This document shows positions 773-64,000 of a stretch of DNA of 64,000 bases, in pieces. A program made the position numbers and the translations under genes. The stretch is from a virus: positions 1 to 64,000 of the IMG/VR virus record IMGVR_UViG_3300034418_006779; one strand, written 5' to 3'. Position 1 is the stretch's first letter; each line of letters opens with the position of its first letter. The notes under the pieces were generated by a model. That model was given only the letters and a program-made list of their open reading frames with translations, ran no database searches and had not been told where the DNA came from.

Positions 773-784
773 CCTCCTTAGACA

Positions 785-3061: not shown

Positions 3062-3079
3062 GTTTTTAAAGGAAAATTT

Positions 3080-4318: not shown

Positions 4319-4324
4319 GTATAT

Positions 4325-4353
4325 AATATACAATTTTCAAGACAGAAAGTCAA
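4325..4353 (-). promoter_or_regulatory. sigma70-like promoter TTGACT-17-TATTAT
   Basis: Both hexamers match consensus at 5/6 with a 17-nt spacer. Confidence 0.55.
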
Positions 4354-4368
4354 TCTCTGTTCATATAA

Positions 4369-46369: not shown

Positions 46370-49300
46370 ATGGCTGAAACAACTCAAAATACAAACCCAG
46401 TATTTGATAAAATATTACAGCAAAATAGAGCGCAGGCACTCCACGGAGCGTCTGCGTCTAAAGGTTTAGGAACAACTCTAGTAGACGGTCCAATCTACAC
46501 AGGATACGACGATCCTAGAATGAGCCTACTCACCCAATCGGGGTGGGAACAAGCACGGAGAGCAATCGGAGGTGGACTAACCTTGGGTGCTTTAGGTGCT
46601 ATGAAGAACACATATCAATTCGCACATGATATTGGTAACTTCTTCGAAACAATGTTTAGTTCTGATAAATCTATGTCAGATTTATTGGATATGGAACAAT
46701 ACTCTCAATCAACGATCGCAAAGAACTTAGGAGAGATCATTGATGAGAAGAGAGAAGCATTTGCAATCCATAAAGCAGATCCCAATGATGTGTTTGATTG
46801 GGATGATTCAGGATTTTATTGGCAGTCAGTTCAAGGAATCCTAGACTCAGCGGTACAGTTTGCTCTTCCTGGTGCAGGGGCAGTAAAGGCTGTAGGGGCT
46901 ATTCAAAAAATACCTAGACTATTTAGCTACTTCAAGAAAACAGAGAAGTTAGGACAAATGCTTACAGCAAGTAAGAGTGGACAACAGATCGCCAACTCTG
47001 TTGGTTCAGGTCTTTTAAGTAACCATATAGAAGGTACTTCTATGGCTTCAGAGATCTACAACAATACCATGAAGAACTTTGAGAAAGATATTCAGAAGTA
47101 TAGAGATAGTGAGGGTAGAGAAGGAATTTCTTTAGAAGAAGCTAAAAGGAGATCAGCATTCTCTGCTAACTCATTTAGAGAATGGAATAGACTCATGTTC
47201 TTTACTGACGCAGTTCAGTTACATGGTCTATTTAAAGGAAAAGGTTTCACACGAAATTTATTAGATGCCAAAGGATTTAAAGAAAGTGTAGGTAACTTAA
47301 CTAAGTTCAATACTAAAAACCCAATTTATGGTTTCCTTAAGCAAGGAGTAACAGAGGCCGGGGAAGAGATTGTACAAGGAATTAGTCAGCGTCTTCATGA
47401 AGATATGGCTAAAGGAGTAGACACCCCTATTGGGGAAAGACTCCTAGATTATGTCACTGATTCAGAGTTACTATATGAAGGATTCTTAGGATTTTTTGGC
47501 GGCGGCCCTCAAAAAATAGCCACCCAGTTTGCACAAGAAGGAGATGCAGTTCTTACTGGTAAGTTTTTCACTAAAAAGTACTGGAATGATAAGAATGCCA
47601 TGTACAACCAACAGCAGGAAATAATCAAGGAAACTAATGATTATTTTAAAAGCGAGTTAGGAAGACAAATGGTAGGACATAATATTGCTGCCGATGCTGT
47701 TATTGCGGGCCGTCCTGAGTTAGGGGAGATTGCCACTAATCGTGAGTTCTCTCGACTAGCTACAATGCATTTTGAAGCTGGTACAACCGAGGTGTTCGAA
47801 CAACACCTAGATGACATTGCTAACAACGCAGAGTACCGAAAGGAGAATAAATATAGTGACGATGATGCGGCTAATGCCAAAGAGTTACTGAAAGAGTTAG
47901 ATCGTTTAGAGCAGCAATGGATGAAGACATCCCGATATGCTGTTGACGACAAACATCAAGTAAGACTCTTCGAGACAAACAATATCATCAATAGCCTAGA
48001 GAAGCTGGTTGGATCCCAGCAAGAACATATAGATAAGCTAACGCAGAATCTTAATGAAACTATTATAGACGATGCTGTTGAAGCAGCCAATCTAAAAATT
48101 AGTAATGAGAAGAAGGACGCACTTCGTAAAATCTTATCTATAGATGAGCAAGGCAAGCTTAGAGCTCCAGTAGATGAGCTGGCTGAAGCTGATTTACATC
48201 CTGCTCATGCTAAAGCTGTAGCTGAGGTATTCGATACTCAATCTCAAGTAACAGATTTAAAAGACCAGCAAGCTATTCTTGATGAAATGAATAGTAAGTT
48301 GAGAGACGCCAAAAAAGATAGGGCTAACTATAACTCTTTTGGATATCGTAAATCTTATATTGAACATAAGAAGAGGCAGGAAAAAAGGCTGAAGGATAAG
48401 ATTAAAAGAGAGGAAGCTGCTGAAAGAAAACAACGACGTGCAGATAAAAAACTAAAGAGAGCTGAGACAAGTAAAAAGCTTAAAGGAAAAGCTAAGCAGC
48501 TTGCTAAGAAAGGAGAACTTAAGAAAGAAGCTAAGAAGATAATGGATAAGGCTGCTACTAAAGCTAAGCTAGCTCCTGAAAATAAAAAGTCAGAACCGTT
48601 ACAGACTGTTGATCCTGCAACTAAACAACCAGTCACACCAACTCAACCTACTCCTAATGAATATATAGGAAAAGAGAGAGGAACGCTGCTGGCAGAGAGA
48701 AGTAAGAAAGAAGCTGTACTGAGTAGTAGCAAACCTGAAGAAATAATGCCTGTACTAGACGTACTAGCAGAGATAGGAGATGCGCTTGAGGAGCTCAGAG
48801 CTCAGCCATTTCAGCATAGTGGTAAATATGAATTTGCCCCACCAGCACATATCAAAGATGCTCTGGATGAGATGATCAATAGATCTAAGAGAATTATTCT
48901 CAATGAAGATACTAATGAGTATGAGCTGAAAGATGAGAACGGGAAGGTTGTCAGAACTTACAAAAGAGTAAGTAATGTTAGCAATCCTGACTATGATGAT
49001 TCTAATAAGTATGCTCATCATGCTACTCAGATTGGTTCAGCACTAGACTTGATTGCTAGAGATTTCTTTTCAGGCAATCTCAAGGCTTGGGACACATACT
49101 TAGTTGCAGACAAATTCGATAAGACTAAGAGTTATCCAGTGTTTAAAGGCAAGAAAGAGTTTGAACACTATCTTCATCAACTGGAAGATCTGAAGCTTGT
49201 TCTTAAAAGTAAAGGGCAAGTCATTATTGATCCAGGAATTGTAGATGGGAAAACATCTGAGTTTAAATTAGCTGATGATGAGAATGGAGTAGCTGGAACT

Positions 49301-52300
49301 GTTGACTTAATGACTTATGACAAAGAGGGTAATGTTTATATTTATGACCTCAAGTCGATGAGAAGCAACAAACTAGAAGGGAATGACTATTACTCCAGAA
49401 CACACGGGAGAAAGAAATCGGATGCAGAAACTCACCAAGACCAGTTATCACTTTACCGCATTCTGTTAGCAAACAGCACTGGACTTTTGGCTGCTGAATT
49501 AGCAGTAATTCCAACAGTAGTTGGGGGGTACAATCCTGACGGAGAAGTAAAAGTTCCAAGCACTGTTAACATTCTAACCAAAAGATTTGGTCCTGATGTT
49601 ACTAGTATGGTAGACTTCTTTGTCTTCATGGATCCAAAAGATTCAGTGAGTGGTATTGAACTTAGTCCTTTGAGGACATTCATTACAACTCCACCGTCAA
49701 CTCCTATCCAAGTTCCACCATCTACTCCACAAGCATCTGAAGAGGAAGCAGAGGCAAGAGCTGACTTAGCAGCTGTTGTAGGTCTTACTAATAAGATTGA
49801 CGCAGAGCTAAGAAAGATTGATCAAGACCAAGAATTTCATGCGGATGCCGAGGAAGATCTACTTGAAGGGTTGACTAAGAAAGAGAAGGAGATGCTATCT
49901 AAAATTCGTAAGAAGCATTCTTCTTTTTGGGTGGGGTCTAGAGAAGAATTAGCTAAGCTAGTTGGGACTAAACAGAAGAAGGTTGATGAGTTCATTGAAA
50001 AACTCGAACAGAAAGGATTTCTAGAGTTCAACGATGAGACTGTTGTACTAACGCTTTCTGATCTACCGGCACGCTTTGCTGCTAGGAATGGATTCTCCGC
50101 AATCATTGAAGCTGCTGAAGATAACTTCAACGGAGTTATTGCACGAATTAGAAAGAGACTAGAGAAAGGAGAGGATTACCAAGTTGAGTTTGCTGATCTT
50201 ATTAACTTCATTCAGCATCAGTTGGAAGCAGTTAATAGCGCTATCTCCGAAAGACAATATGACATGTATGAGATGCTTTACTTGCATTATGTATTTGTCA
50301 ATAAGTCAAGAGACTTCCAGAAACCCCAAATTCCCAGCTACGAAGAGTGGTTAAAGCAATCCATTGTTCCTGGAGCAGATGTTAAGATTGATGACCAGTA
50401 TGATGAAAATACAATAGATGAAGTTAAGAACATGTCTGACTTCATCAAGCGATTCTTTGAACTTCCTGATAAGAAATTAGGAGAGCAGGGAACGAAGGCT
50501 GCTGTAGATAAGGTTGCTTACTTAGCTCGTGAATATTTTAACGAGGCTTTAACGTCAGAGGGATTCAGTGCTCAAGAGATTAGTGATAGTCTAAATGAAG
50601 GAAAAGTTCACCCGGATGTTTTCAATAGAAAGAAGCTTCTCCCCGGCACAAAGCTCAAGATTAAAGTTAACCATAATTATACTGGAGTAACTAAGTATCA
50701 TCCTGAGCTGATGGGAGACCTCCCTACACAAGAGACGCCTCAAGGAAGAGTAGTGCAGTGGAGCGATTTTATCGCTAAGTATCCACAAGGTACTTTAGAG
50801 TATAACATGTTTGTCCCTCTTGAGATCAGAACTGAAGATGATAGACTGATCGGATGGTACCACACCGTAGGATTTGCTACTAAGCATACTATCAAAATCA
50901 AAGATGGCCAGACTTCTGATGAAGCGGTCGAGGAAGCAAGAGAAGCAGTGATAGACGCTCGTGACATTATTCTGAACAACTTAAACTCTCAAGGAGAATT
51001 TGATGCAGGAGGACAATTACAAATTGAAGAGACTAGCATAGGTCAGTTACTTCGACCAGAGAATAAGAATAGAGTACGTGCTTCAGAAGGAATAGAAGAA
51101 GATCTAGACATTGTGGTTGGTCGTATGACTGGTCAAAAAGCTAGTTTGCGTACAGGACCTAGTGATAAGGAAAGGGTTCAGCAGAACCGTGTCCATAGAA
51201 TGAAAGGGTTTAAAGTCATTCGCGGCCTAACGTACCTGATGTTCCCAGTAGGAACTAAGGAAATTAAAGTAGGTAAGAAGAAAACAAAACGAACTGTGAC
51301 TACATTCGCTCCTGTTCCTTTGTACAAACACAAGATGGGAACAACCAAAGCTAATGAGGAAGATCAATACAGTGATATCAGATCGTCCATTGCTAAGGTA
51401 ATTGAGCTATTCATCGACACTAGTAATGAAAACAACATGCCTCTGATCAGAGAGTTTGAAAAACAAACCGGATATAATCTGAGAAAATGGGAGCATGTTA
51501 AAAAGTACTTGGAGCAGTTTCTCTATGACAGAACTATTCCAGCTGAGTACACTGAGATTATTGACTTCATCAAAGACTCTAATCTAGACGATAGTAAAAT
51601 GGTATTTGCTCTAAAGTTTAGAGAAGACAGTAATGACAAGAGAGCACAGTTAGTTCTTGGAAGTAAATTATCTGCAGACGGAAGCCAGTTCATTAATCTT
51701 AGAAGAGGAGATCAATTCACAGAGCAGCACAGGGCGCTCATTGAGAAGCACCTTAAAGCTATGTTCTTTAACACATCTCTTGCAGCAGTTAAAAACAATA
51801 AACCAGTCTTTATAATTAAGAAAGGCAAGGTTGAGCAGATCGCCAAAACGTACAAAGAGTTTGTAAAAAGCACATCAGATGTTCCTTTTATTGGGATGAA
51901 GTATACTGATGAGAATGGTGAAACTCAGCATACATACACAGCACAGAGATTGTTGTTAATGAACTCAGATTCTATCATGGACTACACTGCTCCTGAAACA
52001 TCTGCTACTGAGGCAAAACAGGAGACGGTGGAACAGCAACGTGCTAAGCATGAGCTTACGTATAAGCCTAATCGATTGAAGCAAAAGATTGATAAGTATC
52101 AGTTTGAAAGGATTGCTAAGAGACTTAAAGAACTGCGCTCTAGTGATGCTACGCTTGCTTTATACAATCAGTTAGTAGATGTATACAGAGGTATTCATGA
52201 TCAGATAATCATTGCCAAGAGTCATAATGTTGATGTTGGTAACTTTATCTCAGGAGACTTAGAGACAATGGTTGATCCTTACATGGAAGAAGGACTAGAT

Positions 52301-55300: not shown

Positions 55301-58300
55301 ATTAAGAAGCATTTTCAGGGGCTCGACAAGTTCTACATGCACAAGATGTTTGGAGCCAACAAGAACATGACTGATCAACAAAGAGAGTTGGCCATTCAGA
55401 AAGCAGCTCTTGATATGGAGATCAACTACATGATTGCAAATGCAAACATGTATATGTTATTTATTGGTGACCCAGCTTTGTATTTTAAACCTAGCATGAC
55501 TAAGGATCTCATCAAGAAATATCCAGACCCTATTGATTTTATCAGGGCGTATCATTCTGAGGTTAACGATGAGTATAGAATCAATGTGGTCAAAGATACA
55601 TTCGATAATGCTGGTAAACGTCTAGCAGGGGATATTGCTCCTGGATATGAGTTAGCAGATACAGCTAACCCAGATTTTGCAGATGATCTTGAGATTAATT
55701 ATATGTTCTTAGGCGATGTTAAAATTGCTAGTGTAGAAAAAGAATACTTAAAACGATTAGGATTGGGAGATGCCTATGATGGGCTCGAAGGTGCAGATGG
55801 TCAGGAGTATACTCACTGGTCAGAGCACTTAAAAATACTATATCATTTGGGTAGACTGACAGATGATGATTATGAGAGAATTACAGATAAACTAGACAGA
55901 GGTGAAGACCTGAATGATTCAGATTTGAAGACTGTTCTTCAGCCAATGAAACCTGTTTATGTTAACAACAGATGGGATGAGGGATTAAGTACTTACATCA
56001 GAACCTATGTTAAAACGTCTGCATTCCCTCTACTTCCACAGCTGACTCGTGATCTCGAAATAGATAAGCTAACTCAATTTTTAGAAGAAAGATACCAAGA
56101 TCCAGAAGCACTGACAATACATCGCGTTCCTATGATGTCTGGTACTAAGGTTGGTGGATTTAGCGATGCCGTTGAGTTCATGAATGCAGATGGTACATTT
56201 AAGACATCGGAAGAATTGGCAGAGGCCGGAGCCTTTAATCAAGATCTACACGTGATTACTGTACCTCGCCAAGGATTTAGAATTCAGCAAGATGTTCCTT
56301 ACAAAGAAGATAAAGATGAGATCAACCGTGTATCGCAGGCTGCTAAACTTTTGGTAGTAAACATGATGGGGCAGAAAGGATTTGAACCCAAGAGGTTTAT
56401 TATAGATAATAGAATCTATGACCTCGTTCCTTCTATTAGAGAGTTCTTCATTGATGATGAAGGCAATGAAATAGACCATGACTTCTCAGGAGAGGATATG
56501 AATAAGATCTATAATGCCATATTCAAATATCTGTATGAGGAAGACATGAGAGGATTCGTAAACGAATTCATGGAAGAGAATGGAGAAGACCTCGACTGGA
56601 ATAAAGTAAAGGATGTAATTAGAGACGAGGCAATAGCACGTAACTATCCACCAACAATGGTGGACGCTATTGATATGTTTGATGATGTAGCATTCTTGAA
56701 GTTCTCACCATACGCTCTACAGTTTCAAGCCTTGCTTAACTCTATTGTTAATAACAGAGTGTTGAAGAAAACAATGCCAGGCCACTCATACGTACTTGGA
56801 TCAGAGGAAGGATTTAGAATTCAGGAAGGACTTACAGAAGATAATCTTAAGAATACTGAGATTATCTATACTGGTTCATTCAATGGTAAATATCTACAAC
56901 CCGCTAGATACTTGACAGTAGAAAATGCTAATGAAAAAGAAATTGCTGATGCTAGAAAGGAGAACAGAATTCTTAAAGAGGAGAAAGATGGTGTAGAAGT
57001 AGAATACATTGTAACCGAAAAAGGTAAAAAAATTATGAGGGGAGATCAAGTATTTGTAGCTCCTAGATTTAAAATTGAAGATAAAAACGGGAAAGAGCGT
57101 TATATTGATCTTAGAGAAACTTATTCAGATGGTACATATAAGTGGTTGAACAAGGACAAGAACGGAAGGCTTACTCTCAAGAAGAGTAAATTCTCTAAAC
57201 AAGCTCTTGAGATGTTTGGAATGCGTATCCCTAACCAGGGTCCTAACTCCACAGCATATATTGAGATTGCAGGGTTCTTACCTAAGAAGATGGGGGACTT
57301 GATTATTGCACCTCGTGACTTCACAGCTCGAATGGGTTCTGACTTTGACGTTGATAAACTGTACTGTTATCAATATTACTATTCTGTTAACAAGTCTGGT
57401 AAGATTGTGGCTTATAAAGGAAAAAATGATAAGAAGAGATTAAAAAATGCATTGGTGAATGTTCACATGACTATTACTAGTAACCCGGATGAGAATGTAC
57501 AGAAAGCTATCAGTACTCCATTGAATGAGTGGAGACTTGGTGAGATTGGTAATACCATATTAGGATTCAGAGAGAAGAGATTTTCTGAAAGAGATCCTGA
57601 GACTGGCGAAGTTATTCCAGCTAATGAATCCTTTAGTGGAATATCCTCTGAGTATCAGAGAACTAAGTATCTCAATGCTCGTGCTGGTAAGATTGGTGTA
57701 GGTGTATTCTCTCAGGATTCAGTATTTAATGCTATGCTGCAGCAGCATAGAGTTACCTTAATGAGACAACAAACTGACGATTCTTGGGATGACCATTTCG
57801 AAAAGTTTGGGGATCAGGACTCGAAGCTAATGTACACAACGGACACTACTGATGGAACACTAACTAAGATGGAGGTTATCTCTGCTTGGCAGTCTGCGGC
57901 GGTGGACGATGAAACATTACAGATTCTTTATAAGCTGAATGTTAACTCTACTACTATGCCGGTTGTTAGGTATATGAACCAGATTGGTTTTGTTGAGGAG
58001 ACTCCATGGTTCTTGACTCAAGATGCTATGTTTGACTACTTAGACTTTTTGAACCAAGGTATGAAAAGAGCTGATGCGGTTAGTGCAGTATTTAAAAAGT
58101 ACAACATCAAATTTCCTGATGAAGCTGAAAAACTGAAGGAGTTTAAGAACGATTTATATGAAGAAGCTAATGAAATTGGATTAGATAAACTCAAGCACAT
58201 GGTTGAGAATGGCCCTGACTCTGATGATTATACTCCAGAAGAGTATGCTAGAATTCAAGGAGCACTGTTCTATAAGTTTCTAGACTTCACTAAGAAAGGC

Positions 58301-61300
58301 GAAGACATTGGAGACTTACAGCGTAGGCTGGGTCGTGATACCAAAACAGTTGGTAAGAACTTGATTGAAACTTTGGAGATTCTTAAGCCAGCGGAGAATA
58401 AATCTAAGATGTATAAGATGGCTAATGAAGAGAAGTTATTTAATGAGACAATTCCTGGTTGGATTTACATGAATGCTTTACCATTGGCTCTTAAGTTTGA
58501 TGATATATTTCAAGTACAGTCACCTCTTATAGAAGAAGTATATTCGTTCTTAGATGACGCTGTACGCTGGACACTACCCAATGATACTCGTGAGAAAATC
58601 TACAAACATATGATTTCTTACTTTTTCTCACTACCTAAATTTGGTATGTTTGATGGAGACGTTGTGTCAGCTAGAGAAAGACTATTTTTTGACAGCAGGG
58701 TAACAAATGGAATGCTGTGGGATAGAATGATCGAGCAACAACTGCAAGGATTGAGAGATAAAATCTCTTCTCGATTTGTAGTAGGAGAGACTACTGATAA
58801 TCAAGCTATTGAGTATGTAGCTGCCTCAGATACTTACATTATCTCATCGGCTCTTGATCTAAACGCTGTTACATCTATGATGGATAGAGCAGCTATATTT
58901 GATGAGAAATCTACTAAGAACAGCTTTATCATTAAGCATTGGAACAAACCTACTAAGAAAGAGCGAAACAAAGCAGTTAATACAGACGGGAAGAAAGGAC
59001 GGTTAGAGTCTACTTTTAATAGTGACCCTACTCAACTTCAGAAGTTTGTAGTAGCAGCAAAAATATATTCTTTGGCTAATCAATCAGAGAAAATTGAAGC
59101 AGCTCATTTTAAGTACGCGTTGAATAACTTCATTAAACTAGCGCAAGCTAGAGATGTGAATCCTGTGAATAATATGTCATTGGCATCTATTTTCTCAAAT
59201 ATTATGTCACATGATTATGTTAGGAACAATCCTTTCTTGATTGGTATGACCGCAGACATTAATGAACAAGGAATTAGTAAGCTAACTTTCAATGCTACCG
59301 AAGGAACGTTAATGAACGAGCGAGTTTATAGTGAGGCTTTTCTAAATCTATTTAATGACGTACGCCAACCTGTGTTAGGAGTATTCAACGGAATACGATA
59401 TACGCCCAAGTTATTAGGACAGGAATTAATTAAGTATGCTATGCTCTCCGGTGCTAAACAGGAAGCGATTGAATTTACTAAATATATTCCGCCAAGTATT
59501 CTATACAATCTCCCTCTTGCTTCTCCAGATGGTAGAACAATAGGTGACGAGGTTAGTAACGCTTCACTTAGAGATCTAGACATGTTCCAGAACTTTAAGT
59601 ACCAGTTCCTACAGCACATGTCAGAGCATCTGATCAAGGTTAGTTCTTACTCAATGGATCTTGACAACTACGTTAAGAAAGGTAAGAAGTTTAACCATAA
59701 AGAAGACCTACTTCCTGCTGTTATTGATAAGTCCAGAATTAACTTCAAGGATAACAATATCAAAACAGAAGAGGGTGAGTTCTTCATTCCACATGCTTTT
59801 GTTACTGAAGAGGTAGCTACTAAAAAGATGGTAGTATATGTCAGTAACAGAAATAACAAGTACCATAAGGTAGATAGTCTTGGAGTATTCGGTATGAGAG
59901 AGTATGATCCTAGTAAGCAGTTTGCTGCGTCAACAGTGAACCATGCGGCTAATACTACTACTCATGTAAACTTTGCTGATAACTATAGTGATGATCTTGT
60001 TAAGTGGGAGAAAGCTCAAGTACTCAAACCTATGGAAGTAGAGGAGTTTGAGAGACTCATAGATGCAAACTTAATGAGTGAGACAGCTACTCCTAGTATG
60101 GCCGAAGTTATTACTGCAACTAAGAAGTATACTAAGTTTGACTTTGAAAAGAGTATGCTTGAAACCTACGCTCAGATGGCAATTCTAACTGGTGTAGAGT
60201 TTAGTGTTAATCAACCTGTTGAAGGAACTTCAAGATATGATAATGAAACATATTATGATCCAGCATCTAACAGAGTTAACATCAACAAAGACACTCTAGA
60301 TAAAGTAACTGAGATCTTAGGCTCGAAAGGAGAAGCGTTTAAGTACTTGCTGATGCACGAGCTGGGTCACGCCTTTACTAAAATGTTTATTCATAAACAT
60401 CCTTCACATCGCTTGACCATTCAGATCAAACAACTACAACAAGAGTTTGTTAGAAACTTGGATAAAGAATCTGATGCATGGAAAGAATTGGTAGAAGAAA
60501 ATGCTTACATTGAAAATACTCTTACTGACATTCATGAGTTCATAGCTTACGCTATGAGCGATAACAAGTTCCAGAAAGTACTTGCCGGGATGAAGAGAAA
60601 GAACGAATCAATGTTGAACAAGTTCTTCCGTTTGATCAAAGGGATCATAGGAGATTTGGCTAGAATGTTGGGAGTTAAAATCAATGACACTCTCTTGGAA
60701 ATCACATTAACTAATGTAATGCAGATGCAATCTCTGTACGCAGCTTCCGTTTCGGATGTAGATCCGGATACTGGAGTCTCAGCTTTTGAACAACTTACAG
60801 AGGGATCTAATGCAGGAATAGTAATTTATGAGATGGATGGAAAGATGTATGAGTTCACTCTTGATGGAGTAGGCGTTCCGATTAGTTATCGTAGAGGAAC
60901 TGATCTAACTAACCTACAAAGTCCTCGTTCGTACACAGGAGATAGATTAGTAGCAAAAACTAAGGAGCTCTATTATGATGCTCTCAAAGATGGAGCTATG
61001 ATTCTAGGTAAGACTACTGAGTCTACTCAAATGAGTTCAGAAATAAGCAAGAGACCTAGCATTGAAGAGACCATTGCTGCGATGGATAGAGCAGGTAGGA
61101 TCGAAAGAGATAGCGAAGGAAATTTGACAGATGTTAAAGCACTTAACGGTAAGTCATCTAAACTTTTCCATTCTCTTACTGAGATTGTTCCTGACGCTGA
61201 GCAAGCTCTTAGAGAGTATGCTAATGTAACAGCGTATAAGGGTGATTGGGATCAACTAGAACTAGACTCCAATGGGGAACCTGATTTGGTTGAACTAAAT

Positions 61301-64000
61301 GACATGGACGATGTTTCGTTCTTTGCTGCTTCTTCTAAAGGGAATAAAGGCGGTGCGGTTACGTATCAGTTCTTTATTGATAGTTTTAATCGTAGAAAAA
61401 TTAAGCTTGAGCGTGAGATGAATGTACTCTCTAAGGAGAGAGATCACCATGCCACAGCAATTGATAGAAAAGCATTCATTGAACTTCGAGTTCGTCAGAT
61501 TCAACAGGCAATTAATATTCTTAATGGACGGATAGAGCTCTTAAGACCTTTGACTAAGATTAGGAGTTTGAAAACCGAATTGAATAAGGATGTTACTATA
61601 CTGGAGAATTTAATTGGAGCTAATAAAAATCCAACTCTTCACGATTTAGAATTAGCTAGAGAGATTATTGAGTTTTGGAAAGTAGTAGGTAACTACTCAG
61701 GAGAAGAACATCCGTTCTTTGATGAGTCAGAGTTGATATCTATTAGAGAGCAGAAGCCCCCTAAAGGAAAGCGAATGAACGCCATGCAACAAGAGCGCAC
61801 GAAGCAGACTTTAGATAGAGCTATAAGTAATATGCAGACTTACCAAGGTATTCTACTTAGCAGATACAAAGACATTATTGATGATAGGAATAAGAAAACT
61901 TATGGAGCAGATCATGATATTAATTGGAATGACTTTATTAAAGATGTATCTGGAGTTGAAGCTCAGTTCTTAGATATTTCTCAAACAGATAATGAAGTAC
62001 TTCATCTATTGGGTGAGGCTGTTAAGGATGCTAACTGGAGAGCTAAAGTAGAATCGAATAAGATTGTAGCAGAAGTTGATGAAATGTTAGACAAACTGAG
62101 AGACTGGGCGAGCACAAGAGATGTAAGTTTGAATGAGGCTTTCGAAAGTTTGGCACAAACATTCTCTAATGACCATGATGAAAGAACCGGTAACTTGGTT
62201 GAGTTCGCTACATACGAATGGAGAAAAGAATTGCTACGTAAGAGACGATGGGCACAGCGACAAGGTACAATTGACGCAAGAAGTGCGGCAGAGTTCTCAC
62301 GCTTTGGTACCACAGGATTTGAAACAGAAAACGTACAGATATTCGACGACTCTCGTTATAGGGTGGAACAAGCCTATAGAGATAAAATGAATGATTTGTT
62401 TGGTGAGGAGGTTGCTCAAGATTTGTCTAACCAGGCTCGGGCATTAAGAGGTGAGTTTAGACGAGCTAAAGATGGATTTATCAGATTCTTAGATGGATTA
62501 ACTCTTACTACTGAGCAACGGGATCTTAGAATGAAGATGTGGGAATTTGAAAACGATCCAGAAGTTCATAGGAATATTTTAAAACACGGATACGTTAATA
62601 CAATTAAAGCAAACCAAATTGCTAAGATTAAAACAGGGAAGAAGTTTAAGTTGAGAAACGAAAAGAACTTCTTACCTATAGTAAGTGGTAAGTTTGTACT
62701 GACTGTTCCTAAATCTGCAGATCATGTAGATAAAAACTTCAAACGTTTATATAAACCTGAGAATAAACCTCTCTTGGATATGTATAAGTACGCAATAGAT
62801 AAGATTAATGAAATAAATGATTATCTTCCTGCGTATAAAACTAGGAATCTTCAAGAGAATACTCTCCCTTACATGTTACAGACTCATATCAATGAGTTCT
62901 GGCACGATCGTAAAAACCATGGTATGATCCATGCGAGTAAGGCTATCTGGGATCGCTTCCTTGTAGAAACAAGGCAAAGTAATTTTGATGAGGAATCATT
63001 TAGAATGAAAGATCCAAACGGCCAGCTGTCTGATGAGATTCAGGTTAGGTATATTAGAGGTAGAAAGAAGATTGATGACCATATTGACTTCAAAGTTACC
63101 GAATGGTTAGTTAACCAAGGAGATAGGAAGAAAGATGATGCTTATAAGAAAGACTTACAAGAGGTAAGAGCTGCTGCTGAAAGAGAGATCATAAATAAGT
63201 TGTCTGAAAAGCAAAGCTTTGACTTAGGACAAGTACTTAAAGCGTATGCTATTTTTGGTCTTAACTACAAGCACAAGGCTGCTACTGAGGATCTTGTACG
63301 AGCTGTAGGGTATGTTGTTGACAAATCCGATGAGGCTCCTACACTAGATGGAAGTGCCGCACCTGCTGGTGGGCGTATGAGAAATATTAAGACTATGGTA
63401 GATTCATACAAAGATTCTTTCTTTAACTATCGTCCTATAGACAAAAACTTTGTTAGTAAAAAGAAAGAAGTTCTCACTCAAGATGAGAAAAAAGAACGTG
63501 AAGAGATTAAAGGGTTGATAGACACATTGAAAGATGACATTGTTCAGATGGGTGCAGACATGAAGAACGATAAGCTTACTAAGAAAGAGAAGCGTGCATT
63601 GAAAAATAAGATTGACGACTATGAAGATAGAATCAGCCGTCTTGAAGATCAGTATGCTAGAATTGGTGGAAAATTTAAGAGCGCATCTTATATTGATTTG
63701 TTACTTAGATACACTCGACTCAAAGGTATGGCGTGGAACGTCCCTGCGGCGTTTAGCAACATTGCTTTTGGACTTGTAGCAGGCATGAATCAAGCAGCTG
63801 ATGGACGAGTCTACGGCGACAACGAATACTTCACAGCGCTTTCGATTGCACTCAATGGGGTAGGTAGAAACTGGAGCTTTGGTAAAAAGACAATATTGCA
63901 TAAAGCAGATGTTAGCGAGAAGATTAGAAACGCAATGGACCATCTTGATATCTTAAAAGAGACTAAGTATGAGATCTTTAGTAAGAGTAAAGAAGGTACC
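46370..64000 (+). CDS. giant virion RNA polymerase polyprotein, 3' end beyond the window (at least 5877 aa; absent from ORF track)
   Basis: ATG at 46370 (MAETTQNTNPVFDK). In the same frame: ADGQEY (55793), LQPMKPVY, MRIPNQGPNS (57221), MGSDFDVDKL (57332-57361). Still open at 64000. Frame spot-checked at many points, not codon by codon. Confidence 0.9.
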   Translation, partial: MAETTQNTNPVFDKILQQNRAQALHGASASKGLGTTLVDGPIYTGYDDPRMSLLTQSGWEQARRAIGGGLTLGALGAMKNTYQFAHDIGNFFETMFSSDKSMSDLLDMEQYSQSTIAKNLGEIIDEKREAFAIHKADPNDVFDWDDSGFYWQSVQGILDSAVQFALPGAGAVKAVGAIQKIPRLFSYFKKTEKLGQMLTASKSGQQIANSVGSGLLSNHIEGTSMASEIYNNTMKNFEKDIQKYRDSEGREGISLEEAKRRSAFSANSFREWNRLMFFTDAVQLHGLFKGKGFTRNLLDAKGFKESVGNLTKFNTKNPIYGFLKQGVTEAGEEIVQGISQRLHEDMAKGVDTPIGERLLDYVTDSELLYEGFLGFFGGGPQKIATQFAQEGDAVLTGKFFTKKYWNDKNAMYNQQQEIIKETNDYFKSELGRQMVGHNIAADAVIAGRPELGEIATNREFSRLATMHFEAGTTEVFEQHLDDIANNAEYRKENKYSDDDAANAKELLKELDRLEQQWMKTSRYAVDDKHQVRLFETNNIINSLEKLVGSQQEHIDKLTQNLNETIIDDAVEAANLKISNEKKDALRKILSIDEQGKLRAPVDELAEADLHPAHAKAVAEVFDTQSQVTDLKDQQAILDEMNSKLRDAKKDRANYNSFGYRKSYIEHKKRQEKRLKDKIKREEAAERKQRRADKKLKRAETSKKLKGKAKQLAKKGELKKEAKKIMDKAATKAKLAPENKKSEPLQTVDPATKQPVTPTQPTPNEYIGKERGTLLAERSKKEAVLSSSKPEEIMPVLDVLAEIGDALEELRAQPFQHSGKYEFAPPAHIKDALDEMINRSKRIILNEDTNEYELKDENGKVVRTYKRVSNVSNPDYDDSNKYAHHATQIGSALDLIARDFFSGNLKAWDTYLVADKFDKTKSYPVFKGKKEFEHYLHQLEDLKLVLKSKGQVIIDPGIVDGKTSEFKLADDENGVAGTVDLMTYDKEGNVYIYDLKSMRSNKLEGNDYYSRTHGRKKSDAETHQDQLSLYRILLANSTGLLAAELAVIPTVVGGYNPDGEVKVPSTVNILTKRFGPDVTSMVDFFVFMDPKDSVSGIELSPLRTFITTPPSTPIQVPPSTPQASEEEAEARADLAAVVGLTNKIDAELRKIDQDQEFHADAEEDLLEGLTKKEKEMLSKIRKKHSSFWVGSREELAKLVGTKQKKVDEFIEKLEQKGFLEFNDETVVLTLSDLPARFAARNGFSAIIEAAEDNFNGVIARIRKRLEKGEDYQVEFADLINFIQHQLEAVNSAISERQYDMYEMLYLHYVFVNKSRDFQKPQIPSYEEWLKQSIVPGADVKIDDQYDENTIDEVKNMSDFIKRFFELPDKKLGEQGTKAAVDKVAYLAREYFNEALTSEGFSAQEISDSLNEGKVHPDVFNRKKLLPGTKLKIKVNHNYTGVTKYHPELMGDLPTQETPQGRVVQWSDFIAKYPQGTLEYNMFVPLEIRTEDDRLIGWYHTVGFATKHTIKIKDGQTSDEAVEEAREAVIDARDIILNNLNSQGEFDAGGQLQIEETSIGQLLRPENKNRVRASEGIEEDLDIVVGRMTGQKASLRTGPSDKERVQQNRVHRMKGFKVIRGLTYLMFPVGTKEIKVGKKKTKRTVTTFAPVPLYKHKMGTTKANEEDQYSDIRSSIAKVIELFIDTSNENNMPLIREFEKQTGYNLRKWEHVKKYLEQFLYDRTIPAEYTEIIDFIKDSNLDDSKMVFALKFREDSNDKRAQLVLGSKLSADGSQFINLRRGDQFTEQHRALIEKHLKAMFFNTSLAAVKNNKPVFIIKKGKVEQIAKTYKEFVKSTSDVPFIGMKYTDENGETQHTYTAQRLLLMNSDSIMDYTAPETSATEAKQETVEQQRAKHELTYKPNRLKQKIDKYQFERIAKRLKELRSSDATLALYNQLVDVYRGIHDQIIIAKSHNVDVGNFISGDLETMVDPYMEEGLDVFTQEELTGLISYVQEYFAGTEKASLLDLIDYQNKIIRPAQDVAKAVETRHAYGIEFMDSLSYEAAKELSNLVSDMKKRYNENDEEIKPDDVGKLVMLMTKGLKTSISSANMTKLKTYLIDVIHDRAMSVEEIYTATESYTISPYGEEDIKAVEKEFKAEESTGAVSAVNPPSDEQEAADLAELDAIRAMFPNSDDESASLYGFTPAQQKFVDTHYVEGVDVLNQGAFIKNMLAELFDKVIYNPKGVKVKLEEYVPQLKYNTVNMRKDLRRKAAAIHEQIKSKYDADTYSMQQAAKDPDNAAQFSEILQLDARAKKLDLMIAGWDKIEGLLYERLTNTAGFKMSKDKSARKEVDLDTPAEHEGENVSSDEEMTESDFSKKKFDSLVGEVDPKASASPLLKMFLSTIPRSEIDPETGKAIGGFSWYKGTEYVDFDKVWGFLKETLANKWSDRKAMIEELENYTTSHPYVQHIIDLLQRDKTHAATLQPRILAELQNDPAYFTKYTNEQLEKMSWDRANYRVQKQMQLARQLIVAVRSTAINMYMVMAYSNLTGGDSYSRYKTIPANRNKVDKKVRDQWTINLKQTALYSPKSEFDATLYPNTSRIDALFNKYDNQYRKTLDHLVGFLSEIGVTLSDEVIADIIKWDGNIPLSGGEWVEAGELLSVLLSDKGLRPKMVNNLPLAASNPLNDGYIQSLSRLQAKHEQGLRPQSARINNKSIYEYTTTQFNADHLRELQEDGDMIANFSKSHFSAKSLWLQDSYDHTGGVMMIDEETGQPVSTGLGLHEMEFFTVSLNPYKEDWQTSSGNPVPLQDRNELQHELTKIAHFQEGFEGGSEFQTYEEGEPVRRRRTSLFYPTNSNKERATGFRGIKAIVSSFYGQENRIVLTDETLDVAMEQLVEPEFNRIVKIQSLIAAGDTPRIKAYAHGGQMFHFIPSLNNMEELWDEFGQLNTEALNDPKIQELVRDRVSKHLIKLGQKKYKFWKKAGIGATKEIETKSGNTIKKHFQGLDKFYMHKMFGANKNMTDQQRELAIQKAALDMEINYMIANANMYMLFIGDPALYFKPSMTKDLIKKYPDPIDFIRAYHSEVNDEYRINVVKDTFDNAGKRLAGDIAPGYELADTANPDFADDLEINYMFLGDVKIASVEKEYLKRLGLGDAYDGLEGADGQEYTHWSEHLKILYHLGRLTDDDYERITDKLDRGEDLNDSDLKTVLQPMKPVYVNNRWDEGLSTYIRTYVKTSAFPLLPQLTRDLEIDKLTQFLEERYQDPEALTIHRVPMMSGTKVGGFSDAVEFMNADGTFKTSEELAEAGAFNQDLHVITVPRQGFRIQQDVPYKEDKDEINRVSQAAKLLVVNMMGQKGFEPKRFIIDNRIYDLVPSIREFFIDDEGNEIDHDFSGEDMNKIYNAIFKYLYEEDMRGFVNEFMEENGEDLDWNKVKDVIRDEAIARNYPPTMVDAIDMFDDVAFLKFSPYALQFQALLNSIVNNRVLKKTMPGHSYVLGSEEGFRIQEGLTEDNLKNTEIIYTGSFNGKYLQPARYLTVENANEKEIADARKENRILKEEKDGVEVEYIVTEKGKKIMRGDQVFVAPRFKIEDKNGKERYIDLRETYSDGTYKWLNKDKNGRLTLKKSKFSKQALEMFGMRIPNQGPNSTAYIEIAGFLPKKMGDLIIAPRDFTARMGSDFDVDKLYCYQYYYSVNKSGKIVAYKGKNDKKRLKNALVNVHMTITSNPDENVQKAISTPLNEWRLGEIGNTILGFREKRFSERDPETGEVIPANESFSGISSEYQRTKYLNARAGKIGVGVFSQDSVFNAMLQQHRVTLMRQQTDDSWDDHFEKFGDQDSKLMYTTDTTDGTLTKMEVISAWQSAAVDDETLQILYKLNVNSTTMPVVRYMNQIGFVEETPWFLTQDAMFDYLDFLNQGMKRADAVSAVFKKYNIKFPDEAEKLKEFKNDLYEEANEIGLDKLKHMVENGPDSDDYTPEEYARIQGALFYKFLDFTKKGEDIGDLQRRLGRDTKTVGKNLIETLEILKPAENKSKMYKMANEEKLFNETIPGWIYMNALPLALKFDDIFQVQSPLIEEVYSFLDDAVRWTLPNDTREKIYKHMISYFFSLPKFGMFDGDVVSARERLFFDSRVTNGMLWDRMIEQQLQGLRDKISSRFVVGETTDNQAIEYVAASDTYIISSALDLNAVTSMMDRAAIFDEKSTKNSFIIKHWNKPTKKERNKAVNTDGKKGRLESTFNSDPTQLQKFVVAAKIYSLANQSEKIEAAHFKYALNNFIKLAQARDVNPVNNMSLASIFSNIMSHDYVRNNPFLIGMTADINEQGISKLTFNATEGTLMNERVYSEAFLNLFNDVRQPVLGVFNGIRYTPKLLGQELIKYAMLSGAKQEAIEFTKYIPPSILYNLPLASPDGRTIGDEVSNASLRDLDMFQNFKYQFLQHMSEHLIKVSSYSMDLDNYVKKGKKFNHKEDLLPAVIDKSRINFKDNNIKTEEGEFFIPHAFVTEEVATKKMVVYVSNRNNKYHKVDSLGVFGMREYDPSKQFAASTVNHAANTTTHVNFADNYSDDLVKWEKAQVLKPMEVEEFERLIDANLMSETATPSMAEVITATKKYTKFDFEKSMLETYAQMAILTGVEFSVNQPVEGTSRYDNETYYDPASNRVNINKDTLDKVTEILGSKGEAFKYLLMHELGHAFTKMFIHKHPSHRLTIQIKQLQQEFVRNLDKESDAWKELVEENAYIENTLTDIHEFIAYAMSDNKFQKVLAGMKRKNESMLNKFFRLIKGIIGDLARMLGVKINDTLLEITLTNVMQMQSLYAASVSDVDPDTGVSAFEQLTEGSNAGIVIYEMDGKMYEFTLDGVGVPISYRRGTDLTNLQSPRSYTGDRLVAKTKELYYDALKDGAMILGKTTESTQMSSEISKRPSIEETIAAMDRAGRIERDSEGNLTDVKALNGKSSKLFHSLTEIVPDAEQALREYANVTAYKGDWDQLELDSNGEPDLVELNDMDDVSFFAASSKGNKGGAVTYQFFIDSFNRRKIKLEREMNVLSKERDHHATAIDRKAFIELRVRQIQQAINILNGRIELLRPLTKIRSLKTELNKDVTILENLIGANKNPTLHDLELAREIIEFWKVVGNYSGEEHPFFDESELISIREQKPPKGKRMNAMQQERTKQTLDRAISNMQTYQGILLSRYKDIIDDRNKKTYGADHDINWNDFIKDVSGVEAQFLDISQTDNEVLHLLGEAVKDANWRAKVESNKIVAEVDEMLDKLRDWASTRDVSLNEAFESLAQTFSNDHDERTGNLVEFATYEWRKELLRKRRWAQRQGTIDARSAAEFSRFGTTGFETENVQIFDDSRYRVEQAYRDKMNDLFGEEVAQDLSNQARALRGEFRRAKDGFIRFLDGLTLTTEQRDLRMKMWEFENDPEVHRNILKHGYVNTIKANQIAKIKTGKKFKLRNEKNFLPIVSGKFVLTVPKSADHVDKNFKRLYKPENKPLLDMYKYAIDKINEINDYLPAYKTRNLQENTLPYMLQTHINEFWHDRKNHGMIHASKAIWDRFLVETRQSNFDEESFRMKDPNGQLSDEIQVRYIRGRKKIDDHIDFKVTEWLVNQGDRKKDDAYKKDLQEVRAAAEREIINKLSEKQSFDLGQVLKAYAIFGLNYKHKAATEDLVRAVGYVVDKSDEAPTLDGSAAPAGGRMRNIKTMVDSYKDSFFNYRPIDKNFVSKKKEVLTQDEKKEREEIKGLIDTLKDDIVQMGADMKNDKLTKKEKRALKNKIDDYEDRISRLEDQYARIGGKFKSASYIDLLLRYTRLKGMAWNVPAAFSNIAFGLVAGMNQAADGRVYGDNEYFTALSIALNGVGRNWSFGKKTILHKADVSEKIRNAMDHLDILKETKYEIFSKSKEGT

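What the first reader, a model, noticed from the sequence alone, without database searches (positions are those of the whole stretch)
46370..64000. Hidden ORF of at least 17.6 kb: single-chain virion RNAP polyprotein of at least 5877 aa
Seen: one frame from ATG 46370 to the window edge carries both double-psi-barrel halves (ADGQEY/QPMKP/KTSAFPL at about 55.8-56.0 kb; RIPNQG and GSDFDVDK at 57.2-57.36 kb). About 3000 aa lie upstream of these motifs and more than 2000 aa downstream. The track omits it, consistent with no stop codon in the window. Known: crAss-like phages package a DFDxD-type RNAP related to eukaryotic RNAi polymerases, often encoded among several large adjacent genes. Inference: here those genes are fused into one multi-enzyme chain that must be packaged and ejected.
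Basis: partly seen in the sequence, partly recalled or inferred. Interest (0 to 1): 0.75.

Follow-up and report, generated by a model that had tools for sequence, protein, structure and literature searches.

The report
Fully fused crAss-like virion RNA polymerase
This is a real 6,255-residue gene of an uncultured crAss-like phage that joins its particle-borne RNA polymerase and the two partner proteins, which related phages encode separately, into one chain; such fusions are already described, so it is an ordinary though very large member of a known class.

Summary
The open frame is real. It starts at ATG 46370, runs off the window, and ends at TAA 65135-65137 of the 109-kb contig. It encodes 6,255 aa (714 kDa). 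All five quoted motifs sit at the stated coordinates.

The middle of the chain matches the solved virion RNA polymerase of Cellulophaga phage phi14:2 (PDB 6VR4, E 1e-17), including DFDVD. The N-terminal third matches phi14:2 gp078 (the paper's gp67). The zincin-like region and the C-terminal 1,345 aa match gp076 (gp65).

It is not new. [quoted passage not shown] I found 305 RNAP-bearing proteins of 3,440 aa or more, four of them longer than this one. At least ten independent assemblies carry the same intact frame.

Added here:
- Gene boundaries shift among close relatives.
- The chain holds a PD-(D/E)XK nuclease-like cassette.
- It has only 2 cysteines, against 58 expected.
- Split relatives carry their almost only cysteines exactly at the split ends, and fused ones lack them. 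This suggests an untested disulfide tether.

This scan has already noted both the fusion and the cysteine rule on other DNA.

The parts
46370..64000 (+). Giant ORF, 6,255 aa in full. It runs off the window and ends at TAA 65135-65137 of the contig (locus L001).
   Evidence: intact in at least 10 independent assemblies
46517..48169 (+). N1 block (aa ~50-600), the conserved head of the chain. It contains the Gly-rich motif GFFGGGPQ at aa 374. It is homologous to the N-terminal part of phi14:2 gp078 (the paper's gp67).
   Evidence: BLAST-shared with about 70-83 of 119 giant relatives. hhalign to phi14:2 gp078 63-672, probability 91.7%, E 7.6e-7. ESM Atlas finds only unnamed phage clusters, one carrying LPD22 in 12% of members.
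48317..48529 (+). Lys/Glu/Arg-rich charged linker (aa ~650-720), the start of the variable insert.
   Evidence: 55-65% charged residues in 40-aa windows. The region is not conserved in relatives.
48842..49549 (+). PD-(D/E)XK nuclease-like cassette (aa ~825-1060). Motifs: GTVD (D at about aa 979), YDLK (aa ~992-995), QLSLY (aa 1025-1029).
   Evidence: Pfam PF12705 gives E 0.0014, 19 bits, below the cutoff of 22. Homologue P0278 passes the cutoff in the aligned stretch. ESM Atlas: 27 of 30 nearest clusters are PDDEXK_1 phage clusters, score 0.96. The motifs are conserved in P0003, P0005 and P0277-P0279.
49835..50056 (+). Probable winged-helix DNA-binding domain (aa ~1156-1229).
   Evidence: A cluster of weak HTH family hits (PF25212 E 2.6e-4, HTH_Crp_2, TrmB, LexA_DNA_bind), all below Pfam cutoffs. 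It is the only part of the single-sequence fold that reaches pLDDT 60-72, with H-H-E / H-H-E-E order.
50387..52219 (+). N3 block (aa ~1340-1950), the conserved region ahead of the RNAP module.
   Evidence: Shared with about 35-44 of 119 giants. hhalign to Fpv1 gp33 1310-1799, probability 98.7%, E 3.6e-16.
52682..52930 (+). Junction J1 (aa ~2105-2187), an acidic linker. In relative P0004 the gene starts here ('MAC...').
   Evidence: P0004 (4,212 aa) aligns to aa 2187-6240. Junction alignment. Population variants differ at aa 2171-2172.
52928..60049 (+). Virion RNAP module (aa ~2187-4560), homologous to phi14:2 gp077 (the paper's gp66) and Fpv1 gp33 1968-3442.
   Evidence: PDB 6VR4 E 1.2e-17. 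blastp to Fpv1 gp33 E 7e-79. PHROG 16227 E 5e-64.
55793..56032 (+). First barrel motif cluster (ADGQEY, QPMKP, KTSAFPL; aa 3142-3221).
   Evidence: Aligns to gp66 residues about 960-1050, N-terminal to the Connector at 1095-1238.
57185..57394 (+). Second barrel with the catalytic DFDVD (aa 3658-3662) and RIPNQG (aa 3619).
   Evidence: Aligns to gp66 1323-1392, which includes DFDID 1361-1365. The pattern G.DFD.D is present in 118 of 119 giant relatives.
60080..60544 (+). Zincin-like metallopeptidase domain (HELGH at aa 4663; candidate third ligand Glu in 'HEFIAYA' at about aa 4720).
   Evidence: blastp to phi14:2 gp076 242-355, E 6e-4. Pfam Zn_peptidase E 0.0026, below cutoff. The pattern HExxH...EF is conserved in 101 of 119 relatives.
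61097..61102 (+). Junction J2 (between aa 4910 and 4911). The closest relative is split into two genes exactly here.
   Evidence: P0003 ends '...IIDQNCR' and P0137 starts 'MCRTSRND...'. Both abut this chain's '...MDRAGR|IERDS...'.
61100..64000 (+). C module (aa 4911-6255; runs to contig base 65134), a large all-helical domain set. It is homologous to Fpv1 gp34, the C part of phi14:2 gp076 (gp65) and gut-crAss gp49-type proteins.
   Evidence: 692 representatives at E<=1e-3. HMM hits Fpv1 gp34 at E 5.8e-53 and phi14:2 gp076 at E 1e-41. AlphaFold2 with a 53-row alignment gives pLDDT 82.7 and pTM 0.83. Foldseek BFVD: phi14:2 S0A048 E 4.7e-18, TM 0.53. No informative PDB match.

Best explanation
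The ORF is the fully fused form of the 'RNA-polymerase block' of cargo proteins of crAss-like phages. From N to C it holds: a gp67-like head (N1 and N3 blocks) interrupted by a lineage-specific insert carrying a PD-(D/E)XK nuclease-like domain and a winged helix; the two-barrel, DFDxD-type DNA-dependent RNA polymerase; a zincin-like metallopeptidase domain; and a 1,345-aa all-helical tail module (gp65/gp49-like). By homology with phi14:2 and crAss001, whose separate versions are found in virions, I infer the following. The 714-kDa chain is made late, stored in the capsid, and threaded partly unfolded through the tail ahead of or with the DNA. It then refolds in the host, where the polymerase transcribes the early genes. 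The other modules are delivered at the same time. Shown here: the gene is real, its modules are homologous to the split proteins, catalytic motifs are conserved, and the fusion is stable in a natural population. Inferred: packaging, ejection, enzymatic activity, and whether the chain is ever cut. I lean (about 55%) to the chain staying in one piece through packaging and ejection. The reason is that split relatives carry their almost only cysteines exactly at the facing ends, as if they re-create one covalent thread.
For: Real, stop-free frame of 6,255 codons, intact in at least 10 independent assemblies with 0-16 substitutions. RNAP: 6VR4 E 1.2e-17 over both barrel regions, DFDVD aligned to DFDID. 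N1 matches phi14:2 gp078 at hhalign 92%; N3 matches Fpv1 gp33 at 99%. The zincin region matches phi14:2 gp076 and HExxH...E is conserved in 101/119 relatives. C module: HMM E 1e-41 and 6e-53 to phi14:2 gp076 and Fpv1 gp34, Foldseek E 5e-18. Collinear relatives show every partition: P0003 = aa 11-4910, P0004 = aa 2187-6240, P0005 (6,493 aa) full length. Summed lengths are similar whatever the partition: 5,398 (phi14:2), 5,997 (Fpv1), 6,102 (crAss001), 6,216 (P0003+P0137), 6,255 here. Context is crAss-like: TerL, portal and MCP families, synteny with Fpv1 gp30-gp34, last gene before the strand switch. The phi14:2 proteins are annotated as virion proteins by MS/MS. crAss001 gp47/49/50 are detected in virions and assigned to a capsid cargo zone. 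The literature states that the three proteins are fused in some phages. Cysteine rule: 2 Cys against 58 expected; 64/70 stand-alone C modules have Cys in the first 6 aa; 80/82 giants without a C module have Cys in the last 6 aa; 0/54 full fusions have either. The same holds in phi14:2, Fpv1 and crAss001. On an RNAP-core tree there are at least 14 changes of the fused/split state, and all 6 well-supported independent pairs go the same way, p 0.03.
Against: There are no virion data for this uncultured phage. Pfam hits for the nuclease, winged-helix and zincin parts are all below the curated cutoffs. N1 does not detectably match Fpv1 gp33, and N3 does not match phi14:2 gp078, so the N-module orthology rests on one profile match each plus position. 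The presence of a conserved zincin-like domain fits the published guess that the polyprotein is cleaved. The disulfide reading of the terminal cysteines is untested, and the chain here has two internal cysteines (aa 3666 and 6119) of unknown meaning.
Confidence: 0.88

Rival explanations
1. A true polyprotein. The chain is translated whole and then cut, probably by its own zincin-like domain, into gp67-, gp66- and gp65-like products, either before packaging, inside the capsid or after ejection. In that case the fusion only changes gene expression, not the mature proteins.
For: Drobysheva et al. consider cleavage likely. Iyer et al. argue that zincin MPTase domains in phage polyvalent proteins can act autoproteolytically, as inferred for P1 DdrB. 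HExxH...E is conserved in 101/119 relatives. J1 is an acidic, variable linker.
Against: The zincin-like domain is equally conserved in phages whose genes are already split, such as phi14:2 gp076 and Fpv1 gp33, so it is not specific to fused forms. The N4 virion RNAP, which also carries such a domain, is packaged unprocessed. Split relatives carry cysteines only at the facing ends, which suggests selection for joining rather than separating the modules. No conserved cleavage motif was seen at J1 or J2.
Confidence: 0.35
2. An artefact: two or three real genes joined by an assembly error, a sequencing error that removed stops or shifted the frame, or a decaying pseudogene.
For: The gene is extraordinarily long, and the closest relative P0003 is split at J2.
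Against: At least 10 independent assemblies from two sources carry the same frame with only 0-16 substitutions. A relative at 31% identity (P0005, 6,493 aa) is collinear over 5,931 columns, and dozens of other full fusions exist. The junction residues align without gaps to both split partners. Catalytic motifs are intact.
Confidence: 0.02
3. A non-packaged intracellular enzyme complex: the chain is a middle or late transcription and DNA-processing factory that never enters the particle.
For: Nothing here shows packaging directly. The chain contains DNA-acting domains (nuclease, winged helix).
Against: The homologues in phi14:2, Fpv1 and crAss001 are virion proteins by proteomics. The gene sits at the end of the structural block, after three other cysteine-free cargo-like genes. 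Cysteine avoidance at 1/30 of the genome background is shared with those cargo proteins, not with the other proteins of the genome.
Confidence: 0.05

Closest known systems
Cellulophaga phage phi14:2 RNAP block: gp67 - gp66 (virion RNAP, PDB 6VR4) - gp65 (zincin-like). GenBank tags are Phi14:2_gp078, gp077 and gp076. (Drobysheva et al., bioRxiv 10.1101/2020.03.07.982082; Nature 2021)
   Same: Same order of modules. The RNAP core aligns over both barrel regions with DFDxD (E 1e-17). The N1 block, the zincin region and the C module are each homologous to the corresponding phi14:2 protein. Position is the same, at the end of the structural gene block. Cysteines are nearly absent.
   Different: phi14:2 has three genes (1,797 + 2,180 + 1,421 aa); this phage has one (6,255 aa). 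The chain here has an extra ~500-aa insert with a PD-(D/E)XK-like domain and a winged helix. phi14:2 has cysteines at the facing termini (C1797 | C3...C2179 | C3); here there are none at the junctions. Identity in the RNAP core is only about 23-25%.
Flavobacterium psychrophilum phages Fpv1/FpV4 (Fipvunavirus): gp33 (4,401 aa, 'virion structural protein') + gp34 (1,596 aa)
   Same: These are the nearest cultured relatives (about 27% identity over the RNAP). The N module, RNAP and zincin are already fused in gp33. gp34 is the C module. Synteny with the upstream tail gene gp30 is shared.
   Different: Fpv1 is still split at J2, with Cys4400 of 4,401 in gp33 facing Cys3 of gp34. The window's chain is fused there and lacks both cysteines.
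Fused 'huge polyprotein' forms of the crAss-like RNAP block (Yutin et al. [quoted passage not shown] 2021, PMC7886860)
   Same: This is one of them. 305 RNAP-bearing proteins of 3,440 aa or more were found, and 54 of those examined carry both the N1 and C modules.
   Different: Nothing categorical. It ranks 5th in length among the 120 best hits (longer ones: 7,385, 6,802, 6,633 and 6,493 aa). Many relatives carry a helicase, intein, YbiA or ART cassette; this one carries a nuclease cassette.
Bacteroides phage crAss001 cargo proteins gp47, gp50 (RNAP) and gp49 (Bayfield et al. 2023, PMC10172136)
   Same: Summed length is 6,102 aa (694 kDa) against 6,255 aa (714 kDa). gp49-type proteins share the C-module fold (Foldseek hit to a gut crAss 'putative RNA-polymerase subunit'). 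These proteins are found in virions and are thought to be ejected partly unfolded.
   Different: crAss001 has three genes, with gp47 on the opposite strand to gp50 and gp49. Terminal cysteines are present (C2339 of 2,341 | C5...C2404 of 2,412 | C5).
Phage N4 virion RNAP gp50 (~3,500 aa; Schitoviridae) and the 'polyvalent protein' concept (Iyer et al. 2017, PMC5512222; N4 structure, PMC13434306)
   Same: It works alike: one giant chain combining an N-terminal region, a polymerase, a zincin-like MPTase and a C-terminal region, stored loosely folded in the capsid and ejected to transcribe early genes. N4 vRNAP is packaged unprocessed.
   Different: It is not a family member. The N4 core is a T7-like single-subunit RNAP, whereas this chain is a two-barrel enzyme. 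No N4 chain appeared in the PDB sequence search.
Cyanopodophage A4 ejection proteins gp27-gp26 (PMC12002296)
   Same: This is a solved precedent for a head-to-tail disulfide (Cys1715-Cys5) between ejection proteins encoded by neighbouring genes. It is the arrangement suggested for the split relatives of this chain.
   Different: The proteins are unrelated. The chain in this window has no terminal cysteines, because the joints are peptide bonds.

Membership tests
crAss-like virion two-barrel RNAP (phi14:2 gp66 family) | Catalytic DFDxD motif in the beta'-like double-psi beta-barrel | tested here: met
   DFDVD at aa 3658-3662 aligns to DFDID 1361-1365 of 6VR4 chain A.
crAss-like virion two-barrel RNAP (phi14:2 gp66 family) | A second (beta-like) barrel in the same chain, upstream of a Connector domain | tested here: met
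   Sequence level only. aa 2914-3265 align to gp66 782-1084, which ends just before the Connector at 1095-1238. The fold of this part was not predicted.
crAss-like virion two-barrel RNAP (phi14:2 gp66 family) | Significant sequence similarity to characterised members | tested here: met
   6VR4 E 1.2e-17. Fpv1 gp33 E 7e-79. PHROG 16227 E 5e-64.
crAss-like virion two-barrel RNAP (phi14:2 gp66 family) | Present in the virion and active in early transcription | not testable with these tools
   The phage is uncultured. This is inferred from phi14:2 and crAss001.
Fused three-protein RNAP-block polyprotein of crAss-like phages | gp67-like module in the same ORF, upstream of the RNAP | tested here: met
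   N1 profile against phi14:2 gp078 63-672: hhalign probability 91.7%, E 7.6e-7, 527 columns. Plain HMM search and BLAST found nothing, so support is moderate.
Fused three-protein RNAP-block polyprotein of crAss-like phages | gp65-like zincin domain and C module in the same ORF, downstream of the RNAP | tested here: met
   blastp aa 4660-4781 to gp076 242-355. C-module HMM E 1e-41 to gp076. Foldseek E 4.7e-18.
Fused three-protein RNAP-block polyprotein of crAss-like phages | Uninterrupted frame that is reproducible, not an error | tested here: met
   At least 10 independent assemblies. Collinear distant full fusions.
Fused three-protein RNAP-block polyprotein of crAss-like phages | Cleavage into component proteins (the literal meaning of 'polyprotein') | not testable with these tools
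   Proposed but not shown in the literature. No cleavage motif was seen at the junctions.
Polyvalent proteins (Iyer et al. 2017) | Several unrelated enzymatic or DNA-binding domains in one phage polypeptide, with a zincin-like MPTase as hub | tested here: met
   RNAP, PD-(D/E)XK-like, winged helix and HExxH...E zincin-like domains. Relatives swap in helicase, intein, YbiA, ART-PolyVal and 2OG cassettes.
Polyvalent proteins (Iyer et al. 2017) | Large polyvalent-protein-associated (LPD) domains | tested here: inconclusive
   There is only an Atlas lead (LPD22 on 12% of one neighbouring cluster) and weak Foldseek rows to LPD-containing proteins (E about 7e-4).
N4-like virion RNAP (Schitoviridae gp50) | T7-like single-subunit polymerase core | tested here: not met
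   The only PDB sequence match at E<=1 is 6VR4, and no N4 vRNAP chain appears. The catalytic motif is the two-barrel DFDxD. The chain works like N4 vRNAP but is not a member.
Disulfide-tethered ejection-protein chain (A4 gp27-gp26 type; proposed for split crAss cargo proteins) | Single cysteines at the facing termini of consecutive cargo proteins | tested here: not met
   This chain has no cysteine within 130 aa of either end or at J1 or J2 (Cys only at aa 3666 and 6119). The feature is present in its split relatives and in phi14:2, Fpv1 and crAss001.

The most novel reading that the evidence does not exclude
In crAss-like phages the RNAP cargo block works as one covalent thread of about 5,400-6,300 residues, however the genes are cut. 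Where the genes are split, single cysteines at the facing termini tie the proteins head to tail by disulfides. Where they are fused, as in this 6,255-aa chain, peptide bonds do the same job and the cysteine pairs are gone. If so, the chain here is packaged and ejected uncut. Split phages could release their modules by reduction in the host cytoplasm, whereas this phage must either use its zincin-like domain or work as a single 714-kDa enzyme. I did not find the tether described in the crAss papers I could search. The scan has noted the same rule on many other genomes, so it is not new to this scan.
Probability: 0.5. Interest if true: 0.65.

Novelty: new member of a known kind. Interest (0 to 1): 0.32.

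Why it matters
As a gene it is ordinary for its group. It adds one more very large example (rank 5 of the 120 best relatives) of a fusion that the phi14:2 RNAP paper already mentions.

Its value is as a comparison point. This chain, the relative split at J2 (P0003 + P0137), the relative split at J1 (P0004) and the fully fused P0005 together form a natural series. In that series the gene boundaries move, while the total length and module order stay the same. The cysteines appear and disappear exactly with the breaks.

That makes two open questions about crAss-like phages directly testable. One is whether the three RNAP-associated cargo proteins travel as one physical thread. The other is whether the conserved zincin-like domain ever cuts it. 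The series also shows that this scaffold carries exchangeable enzyme cassettes (a nuclease here; helicases, inteins, YbiA and ART elsewhere) that would be delivered into the host with the DNA.

Tried and rejected
- **Whole-chain domain scans.** Pfam found only one sub-threshold winged-helix hit. PHROGs found only the RNAP family 16227.
- **N-module searches.** Plain BLAST and HMM searches of the N module against phi14:2 and Fpv1 proteins gave nothing. Only hhalign linked N1 to gp078 and N3 to Fpv1 gp33. N1 against Fpv1 and N3 against phi14:2 stayed negative.
- **Stand-alone N modules.** A search for these found only 3 proteins, all matching the nuclease cassette rather than N1 or N3.
- **Single-sequence AlphaFold2 of aa 800-1260.** The model was unusable (pLDDT 37.6), so I ran no fold search on the nuclease cassette.
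- **C module against solved structures.** The profile search found only coiled-coil noise. Foldseek PDB had no match at E<=0.001. VIA-align wide gave only generic helical hairpins, Z<=8.3. This is inconclusive and is not evidence of a new fold.
- **Fetching a split relative's DNA.** So the adjacency of P0003 and P0137 in one genome is inferred from the junction alignment, not seen. Adjacency was seen directly in phi14:2, Fpv1 and crAss001.
- **Other scans of the ORF.** No internal DNA repeats. No excess of promoter- or terminator-like sites in its last 4.8 kb. No strong transmembrane-like segment; the best is aa 6109-6125, KD 1.56.
- **Literature.** The Yutin 2018 paper could not be read under the id I tried (PMC5736458), so the fusion statement rests on Drobysheva's citation of it.
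- **Rejected readings.** Assembly artefact (independent copies exist), alternative genetic code (no stops to reassign), and intein or intron content (no such Pfam hits in this chain).
Full report
**Observation.** The window holds one + strand ORF from ATG 46370 to the window edge, 5,877 codons with no stop. The window is bases 1-64000 of a single 109,078-bp contig. There the frame continues to TAA at 65135-65137, giving a protein of 6,255 aa and 714 kDa. The other two forward frames hold 415 and 925 stops. A stop-free run of this length has a chance of about 4e-184. The protein's 90%-identity cluster has 19 members. At least ten of them are full-length 6,255/6,256-aa copies from separate JGI and ENA assemblies, differing from the window's copy by 0-16 residues. 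The frame is therefore real and is kept in a natural population.

**Context.** The + strand block upstream encodes a GroEL-like chaperonin, TerL, portal and major head protein families. The head protein's database matches are crAss-like phages: Flavobacterium FpV4 group, Bacteroides crAss001 group, Cellulophaga and IAS virus. The 1,402-aa protein at 37376-41584 matches Fpv1 gp30. It is followed by three small-to-medium ORFs without any cysteine and then by the giant gene. After the giant gene the coding strand switches. This is the layout of Fpv1 and phi14:2.

**The polymerase.** A phmmer search of aa 2801-4200 against all PDB sequences finds one protein, chain A of 6VR4, the virion RNAP gp66 of phi14:2 (E 1.2e-17). 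One stretch aligns to gp66 782-1084 and carries the ADGQEY/QPMKP/KTSAFPL cluster. The other aligns to gp66 1323-1392, with DFDVD on DFDID. In the published structure the two double-psi barrels are joined by a Connector at residues 1095-1238, and DFDID is at 1361-1365. PHROG 16227 (a 4,401-position profile, 'virion structural protein') matches at E 5e-64. Fpv1 gp33 residues 1968-4340 align to aa 2327-4778.

**The fusion.** phi14:2 has three genes in this block: GenBank gp078, gp077 and gp076, of 1,797, 2,180 and 1,421 aa. The RNAP paper calls them gp67, gp66 and gp65. Fpv1 has two genes, gp33 (4,401 aa) and gp34 (1,596 aa).
- **C-terminal part.** A profile built from this chain's C-terminal 1,345 aa plus 45 stand-alone homologues hits Fpv1 gp34 (E 5.8e-53) and phi14:2 gp076 (E 1e-41), collinearly. 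An AlphaFold2 model of aa 5056-6255, made with a 53-row alignment, is confident (pLDDT 82.7, pTM 0.83). It matches the predicted structure of phi14:2 gp076 (E 4.7e-18, TM 0.53) and a gut-crAss 'putative RNA-polymerase subunit'.
- **Zincin region.** The HELGH region (aa 4663) aligns to phi14:2 gp076 242-355.
- **N-terminal part.** Two blocks are shared with most giant relatives: N1 (aa ~50-600) and N3 (aa ~1340-1950). hhalign links N1 to phi14:2 gp078 63-672 (probability 92%). It links N3 to Fpv1 gp33 1310-1799 (probability 99%).

All three phi14:2 proteins thus have their counterpart in one chain, in the same order.

**How unusual it is.** It is not very unusual. [quoted passage not shown] 2018. 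They also write that the gp65 orthologues carry a zincin-like protease domain. Yutin et al. 2021 speak of giant proteins making up the transcription apparatus, with boundaries that vary among close relatives. A search with the RNAP core among proteins of 3,440-10,947 aa returned 305 hits. Among the 120 listed, four are longer than this one (7,385, 6,802, 6,633 and 6,493 aa). The C module has 692 representative relatives. Of the best 149, 81 are shorter than 1,800 aa and 58 are 3,000 aa or longer.

Close relatives show every partition:
- P0003 (4,900 aa, 46% identity) covers aa 11-4910.
- P0004 (4,212 aa) covers aa 2187-6240.
- P0005 (6,493 aa) is collinear over the full length.

phi14:2 is cut before the zincin domain, while Fpv1 and P0003 are cut after it. 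The summed length stays within 5,398-6,255 aa.

**Extra content.** Between N1 and N3 this lineage has an insert of about 500 aa more than most relatives. It begins with a Lys/Glu-rich linker. It then holds a PD-(D/E)XK nuclease-like domain at aa ~825-1060, supported as follows:
- Pfam PF12705 is just below its cutoff (19 against 22 bits).
- The homologue P0278 passes the cutoff in the aligned stretch.
- 27 of 30 nearest ESM-Atlas clusters are phage PDDEXK_1 clusters (score 0.96).
- The D...(D/E)xK...QxxxY motifs are conserved in six relatives.

A probable winged helix follows at aa ~1156-1229, with only sub-threshold hits. In relatives the same scaffold carries PIF1/RecD-like helicases, inteins, YbiA, ART-PolyVal, 2OG-oxygenase or phosphatase domains. 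The nuclease cassette sits elsewhere in some of them, for example inside the C module of P0278. This fits the polyvalent-protein concept of Iyer et al. 2017, in which a zincin-like MPTase is the commonest hub domain. Catalytic signatures are kept: G.DFD.D in 118 of 119 relatives and HExxH...EF in 101 of 119.

**Cysteines.** Prompted by earlier notes of this scan, I tested cysteine content. The chain has two cysteines (aa 3666 and 6119), against 58 expected at the genome's 0.93% (Poisson about 1e-22). The three ORFs just upstream have none.

In relatives, the almost only cysteines sit at the ends created by gene splits:
- 64 of 70 stand-alone C modules have a Cys within the first six residues, and none has one at the C-terminus.
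- 80 of 82 giants lacking the C module have a Cys within the last six residues.
- None of 54 full fusions has either, and their median cysteine count is zero.

The junction alignment shows P0003 ending '...NCR' and P0137 starting 'MCR...', abutting at one point of this chain, between aa 4910 and 4911, where this chain has no cysteine.

Cultured phages obey the same rule:
- **phi14:2:** gp078 has only Cys1797 (its last residue), gp077 has only Cys3 and Cys2179, and gp076 has only Cys3.
- **Fpv1:** gp33 has only Cys4400 of 4,401, and gp34 has Cys3.
- **crAss001:** gp47 has only Cys2339 of 2,341. gp50 has Cys5, Cys2404 and one internal Cys. gp49 has only Cys5. This holds although gp47 lies on the other strand.

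On a FastTree of the RNAP core (120 rows), the fused/split state at J2 changes at least 14 times. All six well-supported independent pairs show the C-terminal cysteine changing in step (sign test p 0.03). FastTree branches deserve caution.

A solved precedent exists in cyanopodophage A4, where Cys1715 of gp27 is disulfide-bonded to Cys5 of gp26. The phi14:2 RNAP preprint does not mention cysteines. The crAss001 atlas reports disulfides only in tail and portal-vertex parts. The scan has recorded this rule on many other genomes. My tests agree with it, and this window supplies the case in which both joints are peptide bonds.

**Mechanism.** Shown: the gene, the homologies, motif conservation and population stability. 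Inferred from phi14:2, crAss001 and N4: the chain is made late and stored in the capsid. The crAss001 capsid cargo zone was estimated to hold about six copies each of the three RNAP-associated proteins, which sum to 694 kDa per set. The chain is then pushed partly unfolded through the tail and refolds in the host, where the polymerase transcribes the early genes. Whether it is cut is open. The published guess is cleavage. The zincin-like domain is just as conserved in split phages, N4 vRNAP is packaged unprocessed, and the cysteine rule points to selection for continuity. I therefore lean slightly to an uncut chain during packaging and ejection.

**Verdict.** Its main use is as the fully fused reference point in a natural series of split and fused relatives.

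Noticed in passing
window 8781-10346 (+): A 521-aa GroEL-like chaperonin (PHROG 5725, E 9e-137) is encoded directly upstream of the large terminase. A phage-borne chaperonin beside genes for several giant proteins may be worth a look.
   Followed up: no
window 774-886 and contig 108966-109078: The last 113 bases of the contig repeat window bases 774-886 exactly, not the contig start. So this is not a simple circular-overlap signature. It could be a dispersed repeat or an assembly end effect.
   Followed up: no
window 41581-46362 (+): The three consecutive ORFs just upstream of the giant gene (254, 326 and 1,018 aa) contain no cysteine at all and have no PHROG match. Their position and composition suggest further cargo or ejection proteins, comparable to Fpv1 gp31 and gp32, which also have no cysteine.
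   Followed up: partly
window 24203-30748 (+): A second giant ORF (2,181 aa) in the structural block has no PHROG hit at E<=1e-5 and a single cysteine (aa 2058).
   Followed up: no
contig 65138-65257, just beyond the window: By eye, a GC-rich hairpin followed by a T-run (…GCCTAAGCATCCCGTAAGGGGTGCCTAGGCTTTCTTGTTTTT) lies about 60-100 nt after the giant gene's stop. It is preceded by a second copy of AAAAAAAAGCCTAAGCA. It is probably the terminator of the late operon.
   Followed up: no
L001 aa 354-444 and aa 2171-2172 (window about 47429-47701 and 52880-52885): The few substitutions among the ten population copies cluster in the N1 block (aa 354-444) and in the J1 linker (aa 2171-2172). The RNAP and C modules are almost invariant.
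   Followed up: partly
In this chain it is in the N module. In P0278 it is inside a stand-alone C module. In P0277 and P0279 it is near the C-terminus of 2,300-aa proteins whose only cysteine is the last residue. It behaves as a mobile cassette within the cargo scaffold.
   Followed up: partly
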